Shown here: one piece after another, positions 14,808-58,307 of the stretch | Layout of the letters: the number at the start of each line of letters is the position of its first letter | Numbering within the stretch: the stretch's first letter is position 1 | DNA from: Promethearchaeota archaeon | Lineage (GTDB): Archaea; Asgardarchaeota; Lokiarchaeia; Sigyniarchaeales; SOKP01 | Length of the DNA: 64,000 nucleotides | Assembly: GCA_016840085.1 (NCBI GenBank) | Contig: JAEOTA010000081.1 | Span: forward strand, 1-64,000 | Reading direction: 5' to 3' | Position numbers and translations under genes: made by a program | The notes under the pieces: generated by a model | What the model saw: only the letters and a program-made list of their open reading frames with translations | Told to the model about the DNA's origin: nothing | Database searches by the model: none

Positions 14808-16697
14808 ATGTCGCTAAACCCATTTTCGTCAAATGAGATAACAACATTAAGAAAATTTATCGAACAAAATGGTTGGAAAATAAAGGGGGTTATTGAGAAT
14901 TACTTTCGATATAGTTTAAAAAAGGAGAAAATAGTTATACTCACAATAAAGTTTCCCGTATTACTTCCTGTTAGAATTAATATCCCATTTGAAGTTGTGA
15001 GTTTTCGAGTTGCTTTAGCTTTTCAGATATGGAATTTAGATCAAAATAATTACAACAATATACTCTATTTTATGAAAACTCTAAGAAATTTAGCTTTATC
15101 TTTAGATCTTGAACATAATTTTCCAATTCAAGGAAAAGAACAGAACTTAATTAACTTACTAAACTTATTAATGCCAGAACTTATAAAAGATGAAAATGAG
15201 AGTACTTGGCTAAACCGGATCAGGATTTCGTTAATGAATAAAAGAGACAAGTTAAGTGAATTTTCATCTGATAATCTTGAAAGAATAGTCGAATCAATTA
15301 AAAGAACAGGATTAGAACCAAGTTTTAAAGTGCCCTGGGAATTGAAACAAGGTGTTCCTAAAATTAGAACCTCTGAAACACTCCTTTTTTCAAATAATGA
15401 TAATAATGAAGAATTTTTCATTCTAGAGAAAGGATATTTTACATATTTCAAAGATTTTGAATATCAGAAATTGTATATCAGAAGTTTCTTTGACACATAT
15501 TCTCCATATCTCTTAAATGAGTTATTTAATGATGTTCCAGATTTTAAGTTAGAATTGTTAATTGAAAATTGGATAAAATTTTCAAAAATAATCTTAAAAT
15601 CTATAATAGAAATTATTGAAAATGGAAAAATCAACTTAAATGAATTTATTAACTTTAGGTTAACAAAAGAATTAAGCTTCTATAGTAAAAACTTTATCTT
15701 AAACAAAAATAATTTTCCTTATTCAGCACTATGTTATGAGAGTTCTATTGCCAAAGAAACTTTTTCTATTCATAATGATCTTTTTAATAAGCCACCGACT
15801 AATTTTGAAGTTATTGAATCTATTAATGAATATACTAATGCTGAAGAACTGATAAATAATTATCGATTTGAAGAAGCTACTAATTTATTAAATGATGCGC
15901 TCAAAGTTTTTAATAAGAATCAACAAAAAAAAGTGGTCGTATCAATTCTTCTGAAATTAAGCAAAATTGCGACACTCTTAAATAGTGAAGAAATTGCCAT
16001 AAATTACCTAGAAAATGCTCTTGGAATAGCTAAATCAGGAGAAGTTCCTATAGAATTTATCATTAGAATACATTATAAATTAGGCAAATCTTATTTTAAA
16101 AGAAAAGAATTTGAGAATGCATTAAATCATTTTAATATAATTATAAACTTTTTAGAAAATGAGAAAATTCCATTCAAAAAAGAAGAATATTTAGGATTAG
16201 CTTATCTTTATAATGGATTAATCGTTCTAGAACAAAATAAAATTGTTGAAGCGAAAAATAATTTCAAAAAAACAGTCCAAATAGGAAATAACTCAATCAA
16301 AACAAGATTAAAATATTTTCTCCTTCGTGCTAAATATTTTAAGAACCAAGGTAACTTATCACAAACTCAAAAATTTTTAAGATTTGGAATAAATTCCATT
16401 GGACTCGAGTTCAATAATGAGCCTTATAAAAATGTTTTAATCGACCTAATTCTTGAATTGGCAGAATTTTATATCCATTATAGAAAAGACTCGAAAAAAG
16501 CAATATATCTCTTAAAAAGTGTAGAAAATCACTTTTTTCCAAAAGATATAAGCGACATGCGTAGAGCTATACGTTGGAATTTATTAATGAGTGATTATTA
16601 TAACTCAGTGATAGAAGATCGTAAAAATTCTCAATTCTACTTAAAACAAAGTCAAAAATTAAAAATTCAACTTCAAACAATAGGAGTAAGTGAATAA
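14808..16697 (+). CDS. TPR-repeat protein
   Basis: C-terminal TPR-like repeats such as YKLGKSYF...ALNHF. Confidence 0.7.
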   Translation: MSLNPFSSNEITTLRKFIEQNGWKIKGVIENYFRYSLKKEKIVILTIKFPVLLPVRINIPFEVVSFRVALAFQIWNLDQNNYNNILYFMKTLRNLALSLDLEHNFPIQGKEQNLINLLNLLMPELIKDENESTWLNRIRISLMNKRDKLSEFSSDNLERIVESIKRTGLEPSFKVPWELKQGVPKIRTSETLLFSNNDNNEEFFILEKGYFTYFKDFEYQKLYIRSFFDTYSPYLLNELFNDVPDFKLELLIENWIKFSKIILKSIIEIIENGKINLNEFINFRLTKELSFYSKNFILNKNNFPYSALCYESSIAKETFSIHNDLFNKPPTNFEVIESINEYTNAEELINNYRFEEATNLLNDALKVFNKNQQKKVVVSILLKLSKIATLLNSEEIAINYLENALGIAKSGEVPIEFIIRIHYKLGKSYFKRKEFENALNHFNIIINFLENEKIPFKKEEYLGLAYLYNGLIVLEQNKIVEAKNNFKKTVQIGNNSIKTRLKYFLLRAKYFKNQGNLSQTQKFLRFGINSIGLEFNNEPYKNVLIDLILELAEFYIHYRKDSKKAIYLLKSVENHFFPKDISDMRRAIRWNLLMSDYYNSVIEDRKNSQFYLKQSQKLKIQLQTIGVSE

Positions 16698-52030: not shown

Positions 52031-52190
52031 TGGTCCCTCCCCCCGGAATCTAGCTAGATCTGAAGTAGATCCGTATTTCGAGCCGGGGACCGCTCGGTTT
52101 CAATTTCGGCTGACGTAACTTCATTAGCTACCAGCTTTAGTACGCGATATTATCTACAGCCGAGCACTCTGACCACTGAGTTAGGGAGGG
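52031..52190 (-). tRNA. tRNA-Tyr(GTA) with two introns, 37/38 (52099-52153) and 59/60 (52048-52076); CCA encoded
   Basis: Spliced 76-nt cloverleaf: CCCTCCC/GGGAGGG-A-CCA, ACTC/GAGT, CTCGG-CTGTAGA-CCGAG, CCCGG-CTCGAAT-CCGGG. Confidence 0.9.
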
Positions 52191-52472
52191 GATGTGTTTT
52201 AAAATTATATAATAATTTAATTAATTTATTTTTTATGATTTTCAATTTAGAGTAAATAATAACAAGAATTATTTTATTCTATACTTTTTTTAATACTCAT
52301 AAATAACCCTCTTTTGTTTAAGAAAACTTATTAAACAAAAAATTTTCCTATATTATTAACATAAAAATTTCCAATAAAAGATCGCAAAATACTTTTGTTG
52401 TGAAAAATTTAATTAATTAATGAATAGTTTTATAAAATTAAACTAATATTTTTTTAAGAAAGGTGATGAATA

Positions 52473-53012
52473 ATTAGAGAAGAGACTGATTATACAGAAT
52501 CTATTGAGAGTTATAAAAACGATCCAAACGTTATTCTAGAACCATGGGGTAGAAGTATAGATCATTTACGATTAACCATTATTGGTAAAAAAGGAACACC
52601 TTATGCTGATGGAAAGTTCGTTTTTGAAATCAAGTTCCCTGAGAACTACCCGTTCGCTCCGCCCTACGCTTACGCAGTTACTTTAATGTGGCACCCTAAC
52701 ATTGATTCATCTATTCCACCAGGGAAATTGAATATATGTTTAGATTTAATTAATCCAGATTTAGTAGGTAAAGTTGATGCGAGTACAGGAGCAAGCGGAT
52801 GGACACCTTCAAAAACTCTAACTAATATTATTGAAGCACTGAAGGGCATGATGCATATAGAGTTATGTGAATATCTCGCATAACGTGTAAAGCCGCCCTT
52901 CTTTAATCCTGGCGATCCCCTTAATCATGAAGCAGGTGAACAGTATTTTCGTGCTTTAAAGAAATTTGAAGCTAAAGCTAAAAGCTGGACAGCCAAATAT
53001 GCCATCGACTAG
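52473..53012 (+). CDS. Ubiquitin-conjugating enzyme E2, split by a BHB intron (52861-52890); probable ATT/ATA start; about 169 aa spliced
   Basis: GTPYADGKF...FPENYPFAPP...WHPNID...NICLDLI...WTP...; after the insert, EPPFFNPGDPLNHEAG...KAKSWTAKYA. Confidence 0.9.
52861..52890 (+). other. Putative 30-nt BHB intron in E2 mRNA
   Basis: GC-AUAU-AG^A-GUUAUG...CAUAAC-GUGU-AA^A-GC; contains an in-frame TAA at 52881. Confidence 0.85.
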
Positions 53013-54767: not shown

Positions 54768-55367
54768 TTAGATTTTCATAAAGGTAAAGACTTCATCCTT
54801 TTTTTCAATATATTTGAACAAACCATAATTAGTTACTTTTGTAATAATTTGATCGTCCTTTAGATGATGGTCATCAACTGATAACCATCCATTATCTTTT
54901 AAAACTCGATACAATTCTCTTAAAATATTTTCTGGATCTGATAAGTGATGAAAAATATCCAATAAAAGAACTACATCAACGGTATTATCTTCTAGTTTTG
55001 TATTACATTCAGTTAGAATTGTTTCAATATTACAAAGTCCTCTTTTTTCTGCTCTTTTTTTGACATCTTCAATAGCTAAAGGATGAATATCAGCTGCATA
55101 TACTTTTCCTGTCTTACCAACTGCCTCTGCTGCGGCAATAGTATAACTCCCTGGACCACATCCATAATCTAATACAAAATTTCCTTTTTTTATTTTAGTT
55201 TTTTCTATTTTTAGATTTGGTGGATAGTTTTTATCACGTTTTTCAAAATGTTTAATCATAAATTTAAAATGAGTTTTGCTCATGGGTTTATCTTTTTCCC
55301 TTTTTTCTGGAATTACTAACACCCCTATTTTAAATATTAATATAAGAATAAAAAAATGGAATTTCAC
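54768..55367 (-). CDS. Class I SAM-dependent methyltransferase (true start probably downstream of 55367)
   Basis: VLDYGCGPG and RVLK..G motifs. Confidence 0.9.
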   Translation of the reverse strand: MKFHFFILILIFKIGVLVIPEKREKDKPMSKTHFKFMIKHFEKRDKNYPPNLKIEKTKIKKGNFVLDYGCGPGSYTIAAAEAVGKTGKVYAADIHPLAIEDVKKRAEKRGLCNIETILTECNTKLEDNTVDVVLLLDIFHHLSDPENILRELYRVLKDNGWLSVDDHHLKDDQIITKVTNYGLFKYIEKKDEVFTFMKI

Positions 55368-56977
55368 ATAAAAGTGATTATAACATTATATTTTTTAATC
55401 TCTGATTCTGCTAGTGCTTTTCCCAAAGGAGTTAACATAATTATATCATTTGATTTTATTTTTACTGAAGTTAACTTAATATCAGGATCTTTTAGTGAAG
55501 GCATGTACGGATTCCAATAAATCTCTTTAGTCATTGGATTAGTAATCATCCAAAATTCTGGATCTAGTTTGTGTCCTGAAACTTCCATTGCGTTAAATAT
55601 ATAACCAATATCAGCGTCAAAAGGCACTACAATTTGTACATTTTCTTCACCTTCAATCTTTCCACATGCTAAACAATCATCTCTTTTTATGATGTTTAGA
55701 TGATCAAATTGACCGTAAATGCCATTGTAATTCACATAGGGAGGATCCATCGGAGATCCAATATTTCTGCTGTTAACTCGAAATAATAGTTTGAGTGCTT
55801 CTTGAGATTGGATACTTGCAATTACGGAACTAACTGTTTGGATTGCTGCTATTTTATTTCCGAGAATATTTTCCATTTCTTCAAATTTGTAATCTGGACC
55901 AAAAGTGTTTCTGATATTATTTTTCCATTCTTCAATCTCTGCTTCAGTTAATGTATCTCTTTTCTCTGGAGATACATTTTCATTAAATACTCGCTCTCTT
56001 AATTGTTCTAACTCCTCTTGAGCTAATTCTTTTAGTTTAAGAACGTCAACATTTAAATTAAGATCAGGTTTATGTCCATATTTTTTTTCAAAATTAACTT
56101 CAGCTTTTATAACACAATGATTTCTATTACGGGGTAACCCTTTTAACGTGCACGCTGCAACTAATTTATCGTCAGCTGGAGGAATTGGAACTAAGCATCT
56201 ATAACATGGAGTTTGATCTAAAAGTTCGGGGGCATATTTCCAATCAAAAACCATTTCAATCTCTCTTCTGAATTTTTCTTTTAATGGATTAATTTTTTCT
56301 TCATTTAACCGTTCTATTTCTTCTTCTAGGTCTTCAATTCTTTTCTGGGCTTGAAAATATTCAGGGTATTCCATTTCAGTAATTTCCCAAAGTCTTGCTT
56401 CTACTAAATTATCGATCTCTCTTTCTTTATCTTTATATTGTAAACCAGAACCCTCAGGGATTACAATTTGAACATGACCTTCAAAAGCATGTGTAGCTCC
56501 TTCGACCATAGGTTTTTTTAGTCTAAGACAGATTTTATTTAAGTCCAATCTAGCATTAAAATTATCTAATGCTCCTATAACTACATCTGCTTCTTCATAT
56601 ACAGCCATAGGTAATTTTTGAAGCTTTTCAAAATAAAAATCAACTTTTAGAAAAAGATTCATTTCTTTCAATCGTTCTGCTGCCACTTCAGCTTTAGGTC
56701 GTCCCTCATCTCCCGGTTTAAATAGCATTTGTCTAGATAAATTTGAGGTTTCAATAGTATCTAAATCCACTAAGATCAGTTTACCTATACCCATCAGAGC
56801 GAAATCTTTTGCGATTTCACAGCCCTTCACGAAAATTATTGTTTATAATATTCCTAATGCGCCTACTCCGATGATTAAAATACATCCCTTATTTATAACA
56901 TCTTGATCCCAGCCATCAATTAATTGTTGTCGGGCATACATGCGCGACTTAACAAAATCTTCTACTTTTTCAGTCAT
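55364..56977 (-). CDS. Ubiquitin-like activating enzyme E1 (Uba3/Uba2-like), split by a BHB intron (56825-56854); 527 aa spliced
   Basis: Exon 1 MTEKVEDFVKSRMYARQQLIDGWDQDVINKGCILIIGVGAL joins GCEIAKD; D..E.SNLSRQ, ALDN..AR, PCYRC, catalytic ACTLKGLPRNRNHC and CLACG motifs. Confidence 0.92.
56825..56854 (-). other. Putative 30-nt BHB intron in E1 mRNA
   Basis: GGC-GCAU-UA^G-GAAUAUUAU...AUAAUUUUC-GUGA-AG^G-GCU; contains an in-frame TAA. Confidence 0.85.
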
Positions 56978-57110: not shown

Positions 57111-58307
57111 CTATGAAATCGTAATAGAATATGGGTGTAACCCTACACCCTCTATCCCATCTGCCAATATGGCTTTTGGGACTGCTTTTTTAAGGATATT
57201 ATATGCACCATTTACATCCGCATTGATAATAATCCCTTCTTGACTGTGATATAAACCCCTACAAATACGCTTTCCTTGAAATTTTTCATGTTTTTTTATA
57301 GATTCATTATCTAAGAAACTACATCTCGAAGTGAAAGATTCTGGCTCTAATATAACATCAATCTCGATTAACTCTGATTTATATTTAATTTGGGACATAA
57401 ATTTGGAAAAAGGAATTTGGACAAAGTTTTGGTTATTACGCTTTCCAATTTTTATTTTATGTTTCCAAGATTTATTATAACCAATGACTATCGTTCCAAA
57501 ATTGTGGTTAATGCAATAATTTATCACTGCTCTCGAAATTTTATGGAAGATATCATTAATTTTATTGTTTCTTTTCCGGGTTAGCCATTGCATTCTTTTT
57601 GTTTCAGAACCGATCCCTTGCTTATCCTTTTTGCTTTTATATCTAGCAAGTTGTTTGTTGTAGAATTGATTAATAGATTTCACAACACCACCTTTAATAA
57701 CAACAGGTTGTAACCCCGCATTATTTACCATAGTTATGATATTGTTCAACCCCAAATCAATCCCAATAACTCTCTTTTTATCTAAATTCAAATTTTTTAC
57801 TTCCTTTTTATAAATAATTTCTAAGATATAATATAATCCTTTTGGAATAATTCTGACGTGGTGTAATTTACTTTTTATACGGGTTTTAACGGGAGGTAAT
57901 TGAGTTTTTTTCGGGAAATAAAGAAAAGCTCCCTTGATCATGCATTGTTGATTCGTAAAAATAATCATACACTCGCCATCTTTCTTTTTGTAACGTGGCG
58001 GTTTTGGAGATCCTAAGTAATTCTCTGGCTGCTTTTTGTGGTTTTTAAGAGATTGGAAAAATGATTTCCAATTTTTATCCACGAGTTTTAAAATTTGCTG
58101 AGCAGTTTGTGAAGGGAGCTTTTTATATGGTTCTTTCTCTTTTAGCATATACCATAAGTCGTAATATCTCAACCAATTACCTAAATAAAAAAACTCTTGT
58201 CTCACATAATAATTGGCAAGATTATAGAGATTTTTAGATAAATGACATAGATAAGATAATTGTGGAGTGTTCTTTAATTGAATCTGTTCTGTTAACCTCA
58301 TTTCCAT
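57111..58307 (-). mobile_element. tnpB: IS200/IS605-family TnpB without tnpA (IS1341-like)
   Basis: SKNLYN.ANY, LPSQTAQQ, GIDLG, IGYN..WK, ESFTSRCS and NADVNGAYNI motifs; terminal hairpin GGGTGTA/TACACCC. Confidence 0.92.

What the first reader, a model, noticed from the sequence alone, without database searches (positions are those of the whole stretch)
56825..56854. Second BHB intron splits the GxGxxG ATP-binding motif of the E1 enzyme
Seen: an upstream exon (ATG 56977) encodes the missing E1 N-terminus ending GVGAL. A 30-nt insert with TAA follows, then GCEIAK. The junction folds as outer GGC/GCU, central GCAU/GUGA (one G-A mismatch), bulges UAG and AGG, inner hairpin GAAUAUUAU/AUAAUUUUC. 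Standard EndA cuts give GCA TTA|GGC TGT = GVGALGCEIAK, the canonical E1 glycine-rich motif. The rest of the 527-aa gene is intact, which argues against pseudogenisation.
Basis: partly seen in the sequence, partly recalled or inferred. Interest (0 to 1): 0.95.

Follow-up and report, generated by a model that had tools for sequence, protein, structure and literature searches.

The report
tRNA-type intron in Asgard E1 gene
The only ubiquitin-activating (E1) gene of this Loki-type Asgard archaeon is broken in its ATP-binding loop by a 30-base insert that relatives keep in the RNA shape cut by the tRNA-splicing enzyme, so the message is very probably spliced, something the papers I could search report for just one other archaeal coding gene.

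Summary
Confirmed. A 30-nt insert with an in-frame TAA (56825-56854, minus strand) splits GVGAL|G of the single canonical E1. Removing it at the standard EndA cut sites gives 527 aa, the length of uninterrupted orthologues. I found 19 homologous genes with an insert at the identical site (14 distinct junction alleles) and 76 without. All inserts are 30 nt, contain stops and keep the bulge-helix-bulge, with compensatory changes including a synonymous exon base against an intron base. dN/dS is 0.05-0.13, so this is no pseudogene. The intron is patchy on the tree, and one close pair shows a recombination tract around the site. At least 11 similar inserts interrupt 9 unrelated genes of this genome, so an E1/E2 'ubiquitin gate' is unsupported. 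Not shown: no spliced RNA was found, and the catalytic EndA subunit is missing from this assembly with its neighbours (present in 5 of 5 congeners). The scan has noted such introns in at least 16 genomes; published coding-region precedent is cbf5 only.

The parts
56855..56977 (-). E1 exon 1 (41 codons: RMYARQQ helix, first beta strand, GVGAL of the glycine-rich loop)
   Evidence: collinear with uninterrupted orthologues and with human UBA1
56825..56854 (-). 30-nt BHB micro-intron, phase 0, in-frame TAA at 56845-56843
   Evidence: 14 distinct alleles, all 30 nt with stops
56854..56863 (-). 5' side of the BHB: outer helix 56863-56861, central helix 56860-56857, bulge 56856-56854 (cut between 56855 and 56854)
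56831..56853 (-). inner hairpin: arms 56853-56845 and 56839-56831 (8 of 9 pairs), 5-nt loop
   Evidence: 3 of 9 pairs change on both sides, 90% of cells paired
56821..56830 (-). 3' side of the BHB: central helix 56830-56827, bulge 56826-56824 (cut between 56825 and 56824), outer helix 56823-56821
56866..56874 (-).
   Evidence: 9 of 9 pairs in 18 of 19 carriers against 18 of 76 intronless genes
56791..56819 (-). exon-2 hairpin (56819-56800) and 3' arm of the extended stem (56799-56791)
55364..56824 (-). E1 exon 2 (486 codons): rest of the ThiF/adenylation domain, CxxC pairs, catalytic Cys266 (codon 56152-56150)
52861..52890 (+). second 30-nt BHB insert, in the neighbouring E2 (UQ_con) gene; same class, unrelated sequence
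   Evidence: absent from 29 congeneric orthologues

Best explanation
A real tRNA-type (bulge-helix-bulge) intron in the mRNA of the single canonical E1 of a Promethearchaeota (Lokiarchaeia) lineage. The pre-mRNA folds into a BHB held in place by a longer exon-exon stem. The heteromeric tRNA-splicing endonuclease EndA cuts after the second base of each bulge and RtcB ligates the exons, restoring the GxGxxG loop and a 527-aa enzyme. Shown: structure, its conservation, the exact junction, and selection on the protein. Inferred: cutting by EndA and joining by RtcB. It is one of a small, shifting population of about 30-nt mRNA introns in this genus, most simply tolerated passengers. Intron-bearing and intron-free alleles appear to be exchanged between lineages by recombination together with about 60 nt of flanking exon (direction unresolved).
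For: Standard cuts give exactly the 527-aa length and junction of uninterrupted orthologues. 19 carriers, 14 distinct junction alleles, all 30 nt with in-frame stops. On 8 alleles 91.8% of cells pair, 6 pairs change on both sides, slid controls give 34-45%; the central pair switches A-U to G-C through a silent GCA/GCG change in the exon matched in the intron. Three central pairs hold in 14, 14 and 13 of 14 alleles against 11, 14 and 5 for the slid register; RNAalifold picks the BHB register unaided. Flanking third positions differ at 0.17 among carriers against 0.41 elsewhere in the gene, and 0.49 among intronless pairs. dN/dS against this genome is 0.05-0.125, with the catalytic Cys and both CxxC motifs kept in all 14 carriers compared. 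Every database protein above 90% identity is a truncated 488-aa call, and the two I opened carry the insert; the genome has no second E1. RtcB and an EndA structural subunit are intact here; the catalytic subunit is intact in 5 of 5 congeners, including intron-carrying G024. Other genes carry the same kind of insert.
Against: No spliced transcript was found. The catalytic EndA subunit is not in this assembly, though its whole 13-kb neighbourhood is also missing. The central helix has a terminal G.A in the same-genus alleles, and single-sequence folding gives the BHB register low probability in most alleles. Median dN/dS among carriers (0.096) is a little above that of intronless pairs (0.064). 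Covariation counts include related sequences and are not probabilities.
Confidence: 0.9

Rival explanations
1. The mRNA is not spliced; the enzyme is made by stop read-through, ribosome hopping, or as two pieces (44-aa peptide plus a protein restarted inside the insert).
For: The insert is a multiple of three; in this genome a GTG inside the insert opens a 488-aa frame, which is what databases annotate.
Against: Stops differ between alleles (TAA, TAG, TGA) and 4 of 14 alleles have two; the GTG exists in only 5 of 14; take-off and landing codons do not match. Read-through would put 10 variable residues into the ATP loop. None of these routes explains exon-intron covariation or the fixed BHB spacing; other inserts of the class are 31 or 32 nt and shift the frame.
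Confidence: 0.04
2. A dead insertion in a pseudogene.
For: In-frame stop inside an essential motif; no RNA data; dN/dS slightly higher among carriers.
Against: dN/dS 0.05-0.125 at dS up to 1.7, with no other lesion in 14 full-length carriers compared; single copy; structure conserved through compensatory change.
Confidence: 0.02
3. The intron is removed, but by an enzyme or route other than EndA/RtcB.
For: Catalytic EndA subunit not found in this assembly; imperfect central helix.
Against: 4+3+3 geometry with cuts after the second bulge base fits EndA exactly; the catalytic subunit with Tyr, His and Lys motifs is present in congeners; tRNA genes here are intron-rich and need it.
Confidence: 0.03
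4. Add-on to splicing: the E1 and E2 introns form a regulatory gate that couples the ubiquitin cascade to EndA activity.
For: Both neighbouring genes carry 30-nt stop-containing introns here; G012 has a different 32-nt intron in E2.
Against: The E2 insert is in 1 of 30 congeners and absent from G024, which shares the E1 intron; the E1 intron is absent from 26 of 30; EF-2, uS3, RpoN, PurA, RNase HII, a GTPase and a ligase are hit alike.
Confidence: 0.1
5. Assembly or sequencing artefact.
For: Metagenome-assembled genome.
Against: Same-site inserts with different sequences occur in independent ENA, NCBI, JGI and Logan assemblies.
Confidence: 0.005

Closest known systems
cbf5 pre-mRNA intron of Desulfurococcales and Sulfolobales (PMC2738675; Watanabe 2002 and Yoshinari 2006 as cited there)
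   Same: Short (16-44 nt there, 30 nt here) BHB-type intron inside a coding sequence, removed by EndA; lineage-specific presence and absence.
   Different: Different phylum and gene; cbf5 is one gene with an old intron and a few losses, with splicing shown by experiment. Here at least 9 genes in one genome are hit, lengths cluster at 30-32 nt, presence is patchy within one genus, and splicing is inferred.
BHB intron in the 5' UTR of Haloferax HVO_1309 (PMC7714728)
   Same: EndA acts on an mRNA.
   Different: Untranslated region; it does not interrupt a reading frame.
Multiple non-canonical tRNA introns of Asgard archaea (10.64898/2026.10.13.758758; PMC11291895)
   Same: Asgard hosts, BHB boundaries, repeated gain and turnover, two-subunit EndA, unknown arrival route.
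   Different: Those studies cover tRNA genes only (no occurrence of mRNA or cbf5 in the preprint); here the host is an mRNA, and silent exon sites carry the structural constraint.
Canonical ubiquitin-like E1 enzymes (UBA1, UBA6, UBA3, UBA2)
   Same: Best solved-structure matches (UBA1 E = 3e-37, ahead of MoeB 2e-24), GxGxxG loop, catalytic Cys segment, CxxC pairs.
   Different: Single-chain 527-aa Asgard form; its cognate ubiquitin-like substrate was not tested.

Membership tests
Archaeal BHB (EndA-type) intron | Two 3-nt bulges on opposite strands separated by a 4-bp central helix | tested here: met
   3 of 4 pairs here (terminal G.A), 4 of 4 in L098 and L112; spacing fixed in all carriers
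Archaeal BHB (EndA-type) intron | Flanking inner and outer helices | tested here: met
   Inner 8 of 9, outer 3 of 3 plus a 9-bp exon-exon stem; outer helix 2 of 3 in the distant clade
Archaeal BHB (EndA-type) intron | Cuts after the second base of each bulge give the functional product | tested here: met
   Restores GVGALG and the 527-aa length of orthologues
Archaeal BHB (EndA-type) intron | Structure kept while sequence changes | tested here: met
   6 pairs with change on both sides in 8 alleles; slid controls far lower
Archaeal BHB (EndA-type) intron | Catalytically competent EndA in the host | tested here: inconclusive
   Only a subunit lacking the catalytic His is assembled here; catalytic paralogue in 5 of 5 congeners; its neighbourhood is absent from this assembly
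Archaeal BHB (EndA-type) intron | RtcB ligase in the host | tested here: met
   Full-length PF01139 match, no stops
Archaeal BHB (EndA-type) intron | Spliced RNA or in vitro cleavage observed | not testable with these tools
   No spliced contig or protein turned up; raw RNA reads are not available
Group I or group II self-splicing intron | Ribozyme core of hundreds of bases | tested here: not met
   Insert is 30 nt
Spliceosomal intron | Conserved GT...AG ends | tested here: not met
   Ends vary between alleles as unpaired bulge bases
Canonical ubiquitin-like E1 | Adenylation domain with GxGxxG, catalytic Cys segment and CxxC pairs | tested here: met
Canonical ubiquitin-like E1 | Activates ubiquitin and transfers it to an E2 | not testable with these tools
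   E2 gene 2.4 kb away; activity not measured

The most novel reading that the evidence does not exclude
Lokiarchaeia run a genome-wide, non-spliceosomal mRNA splicing system: a turning-over population of about 30-nt EndA introns in conserved genes, including eukaryote-signature genes such as the ubiquitin E1, E2 and a small GTPase. Each intron imposes RNA structure on silent exon sites and moves between related lineages as an intron-plus-flank cassette by homologous recombination, which offers a route for the open question of how such introns spread.
Probability: 0.55. Interest if true: 0.92.

Novelty: new variant of a known kind. Interest (0 to 1): 0.8.

Why it matters
In the papers I could search, splicing of an archaeal coding sequence is reported only for cbf5. 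If this holds, close archaeal relatives of eukaryotes routinely interrupt essential protein genes and rely on the tRNA-splicing enzymes to express them, which bears on how intron tolerance arose before the spliceosome. It also has a practical cost: databases list this E1 as 476-490-aa truncations lacking the start of the ATP loop, and marker genes such as uS3 and EF-2 look broken. The allele series gives a ready test (a natural compensatory pair) and a recombination tract that bears on how these introns spread.

Tried and rejected
Ab initio BHB scans of the window and genome were too noisy and showed no length peak at 30-31 nt, so I give no genome-wide count from them; they served only to pick candidates for homology checks. 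Candidate C70:19536-19565 was rejected: the frame is not conserved in relatives. Candidate C79:36877-36906 was left untested (no Pfam match). Searches for spliced RNA found nothing: the JGI pattern search with a 0-30 nt gap gave only 4 intron-bearing contigs, and no short protein matched a spliced carrier exactly. The catalytic EndA subunit was sought by Pfam, TIGRFAM, phmmer, motif and tblastn with congeneric copies, without success. A single recent origin of the intron is not supported by the trees (4 places, 6, at least 4 forced by starred branches; quick and FastTree trees only). Gain versus loss could not be settled. Six literature searches for Asgard mRNA introns returned no report; most subscription journals are not covered. 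Searches were slips with no result used. The spliced protein has no reference, so it was examined only inside scripts and not folded.

Full report
OBSERVATION. On the minus strand an ATG at 56977 opens 41 codons ending GVGAL; a 30-nt insert follows (56854-56825) with an in-frame TAA at 56845-56843; a 486-codon frame starting GCEIAKD runs to 55364. Removing the insert gives an open 527-aa protein. Exon 2 matches ThiF from profile position 32 onward. An uninterrupted orthologue matches human UBA1 best among solved structures (E = 3e-37), and the junction aligns to the glycine-rich loop of its active adenylation domain. The only other ThiF-like gene in the genome is 28% identical. Named relatives are Promethearchaeota (Lokiarchaeia) MAGs.

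STRUCTURE. The 91-nt region folds far better than shuffles (z = -4.84), and a shuffled insert rarely pairs this way at this site (p = 0.0005). New here: exon bases 56874-56866 pair with 56799-56791 over 9 bp, enclosing an exon-2 hairpin. One caveat: nearest-neighbour folding of single alleles mostly prefers a slid central register without bulges.

HOMOLOGUES. Of 30 congeneric genomes, 4 carry a 30-nt insert at the identical site and 26 are uninterrupted. Wider searches gave 19 carriers and 76 intronless genes, with 14 distinct junction alleles, including a distant clade at 72-75% protein identity. Every insert is 30 nt and holds one or two stops. Intact orthologues are mostly 527 aa, while all six proteins above 90% identity to this one are 488-aa truncations; those opened carry the insert. 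On 8 alleles the named structure pairs in 91.8% of cells, with 6 pairs changed on both sides, against 34-45% for slid controls, and RNAalifold recovers the BHB register by itself. The most telling change is a silent GCA to GCG in exon 1 matched by T to C in the intron. Bulge bases vary freely. Across 14 alleles the BHB central pairs hold 14, 14 and 13 times, the slid register 11, 14 and 5 times. These sequences are related, so the counts are not probabilities.

SELECTION. dN/dS against this genome is 0.05-0.125 over dS of 0.19-1.7; the catalytic Cys segment and both CxxC motifs are intact in all 14 carriers compared. The median among carriers (0.096) is slightly above intronless pairs (0.064), which may reflect closer pairs. 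Third positions in the 20 flanking codons differ at 0.17 between carriers against 0.41 in the rest of the gene; intronless pairs show 0.49. The extended stem is complete in 18 of 19 carriers and in 18 of 76 intronless genes. Silent exon sites thus appear constrained by the RNA fold, although shared transfer contributes to the same signal.

HISTORY. Carriers fall at 4 to 6 separate places on the protein tree (quick trees, midpoint root). The inserts are alignable without gaps, which suggests one origin. G018 shares its flanks with distant carriers (2 of 20 third positions differ from G033, 0.46 elsewhere) and not with its intronless sister G002 (14 of 20, 0.25 elsewhere). A closer intronless allele (L248) differs from G018 in an almost unbroken run of codons from about -16 to +5, but at about a fifth of third positions elsewhere (11 of 20 against 39 of 182, p = 0.002). 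That is the pattern of allele replacement by recombination with a divergent donor (inference); whether it brought or removed the intron is not resolved. One intronless clade keeps a carrier-type 3' flank (L029), which fits loss.

MACHINERY. RtcB is intact. The one EndA gene assembled here lacks the catalytic His of M. jannaschii EndA and looks like the structural subunit. Five of five congeners have a second, catalytic paralogue, including G024, which shares the intron. Neither that gene nor orthologues of its neighbours over 13 kb are in this assembly, so a gap is the likeliest cause; many tRNA genes here have introns. Two-subunit EndA is the usual Asgard state (10.64898/2026.10.13.758758), and some such enzymes accept relaxed motifs (PMC12397907).

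OTHER GENES. The neighbouring E2 has an unrelated 30-nt BHB insert at 52861-52890 that is absent from 29 congeners; G012 has a different 32-nt one elsewhere in E2. An even sample of 24% of congener G006 (602 orthologues) revealed two inserts in EF-2 and one in RpoN of this genome. Targeted checks confirmed inserts in PurA (31 nt; shared by G024, G033 and G002, absent in G018), RNase HII (in all five relatives, with varied sequence), a small GTPase and an acyl-CoA ligase (absent at that site in four relatives each). uS3 is split by inserts of about 31 and 30 nt; the exact register of the first was not resolved. That makes at least 11 inserts in 9 genes, a small share of the genome, in conserved genes of unrelated function. 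This argues for passengers tolerated where they can be spliced, and against a ubiquitin-specific switch.

MECHANISM. Pre-mRNA folds; EndA cuts after the second base of each bulge; RtcB joins the exons; the ribosome makes the 527-aa E1. Folding potential, junction and selection are shown; cleavage and ligation follow from established BHB chemistry and are inferred. Read-through, hopping and restart are disfavoured by variable and doubled stops, unmatched codons and a GTG present in only 5 of 14 alleles. I found no spliced RNA.

KNOWN AND NEW. It works like the crenarchaeal cbf5 intron (PMC2738675) and meets every testable sequence feature of a BHB intron; the enzyme test is inconclusive for this assembly. 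As of 2020, cbf5 and a 5' UTR intron in Haloferax were the only mRNA cases named (PMC7714728). The 2026 preprint on Asgard introns treats tRNAs only and leaves the arrival route open. My searches found no report for Asgard mRNAs, within an incomplete library. This scan has noted the same class in at least 16 genomes; those notes are leads, and one that claims RNA evidence for dnaG I could not check.

VERDICT. Real feature, very probably a spliced BHB intron (0.9); new variant of a known kind; interest 0.8.

Noticed in passing
window 52861-52890 (+): 30-nt BHB insert with TAA in the E2 gene; absent from 29 congeneric orthologues, including the closest relative G024.
   Followed up: yes
window about 52031-52192 (-): GC-rich tRNA-Tyr(GTA)-like gene, apparently with inserts in the anticodon loop and the T arm; ARAGORN found nothing, and my attempt to splice it by script gave no clean result.
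   Followed up: partly
window about 52461-52480 (+): The E2 frame has no in-frame ATG, GTG or TTG at its 5' end; a GGTGA motif is followed by ATA and ATT codons, so the start may be non-standard.
   Followed up: no
window 57111-58307 (-): IS605-type TnpB (OrfB, Cas12f1-like domain) sits 133 bp upstream of the E1 start, between it and a 1767-aa TPR/MIT repeat gene; in several carriers the repeat gene directly precedes E1.
   Followed up: no
L244 (G012:C5, insert starting near 68349, -): A different 32-nt BHB insert in the E2 gene of G012, at another position.
   Followed up: partly
G000:C4:16273-16302 and 16144-16173 (-); C69:52786-52816 (-); C49:147228-147258 (-); C83:76533-76562 (+); C24:30582-30611 (+); C6:13999-14028 (-); C85:about 142151-142280 (+): BHB-type inserts in EF-2 (two), RpoN, PurA, RNase HII, a small GTPase, an acyl-CoA ligase and uS3 (two), checked against relatives.
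   Followed up: yes
G000:C19:6018-6047 (-); C88:2583-2612 (-); C24:121176-121207 (-): Further candidates in a ThiS-like gene (removal restores a C-terminal Gly-Gly), a nitronate-monooxygenase-family gene and a ferredoxin-like gene; structure seen, orthologues not compared.
   Followed up: partly
L232 (G024:C78:59437-59880, -): G024 lacks this genome's GTPase insert but has its own 30-nt stop-containing insert further downstream in the same gene.
   Followed up: partly
G000:C79:3618-4223 (+) and L245: Only the non-catalytic EndA subunit is assembled in this genome; the block holding the catalytic subunit in G024 has no counterpart here.
   Followed up: yes
G003:C8:31062-31673; G005:C178:1635-2075: uS3 of G003 has an internal TGA and a match 30 nt longer than usual; the G005 match starts at position 48. 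Both may carry introns too.
   Followed up: no
E1 exon 2, about residues 170-245: A long charged insert lies between the adenylation core and the first CxxC; it is conserved in length across orthologues.
   Followed up: no
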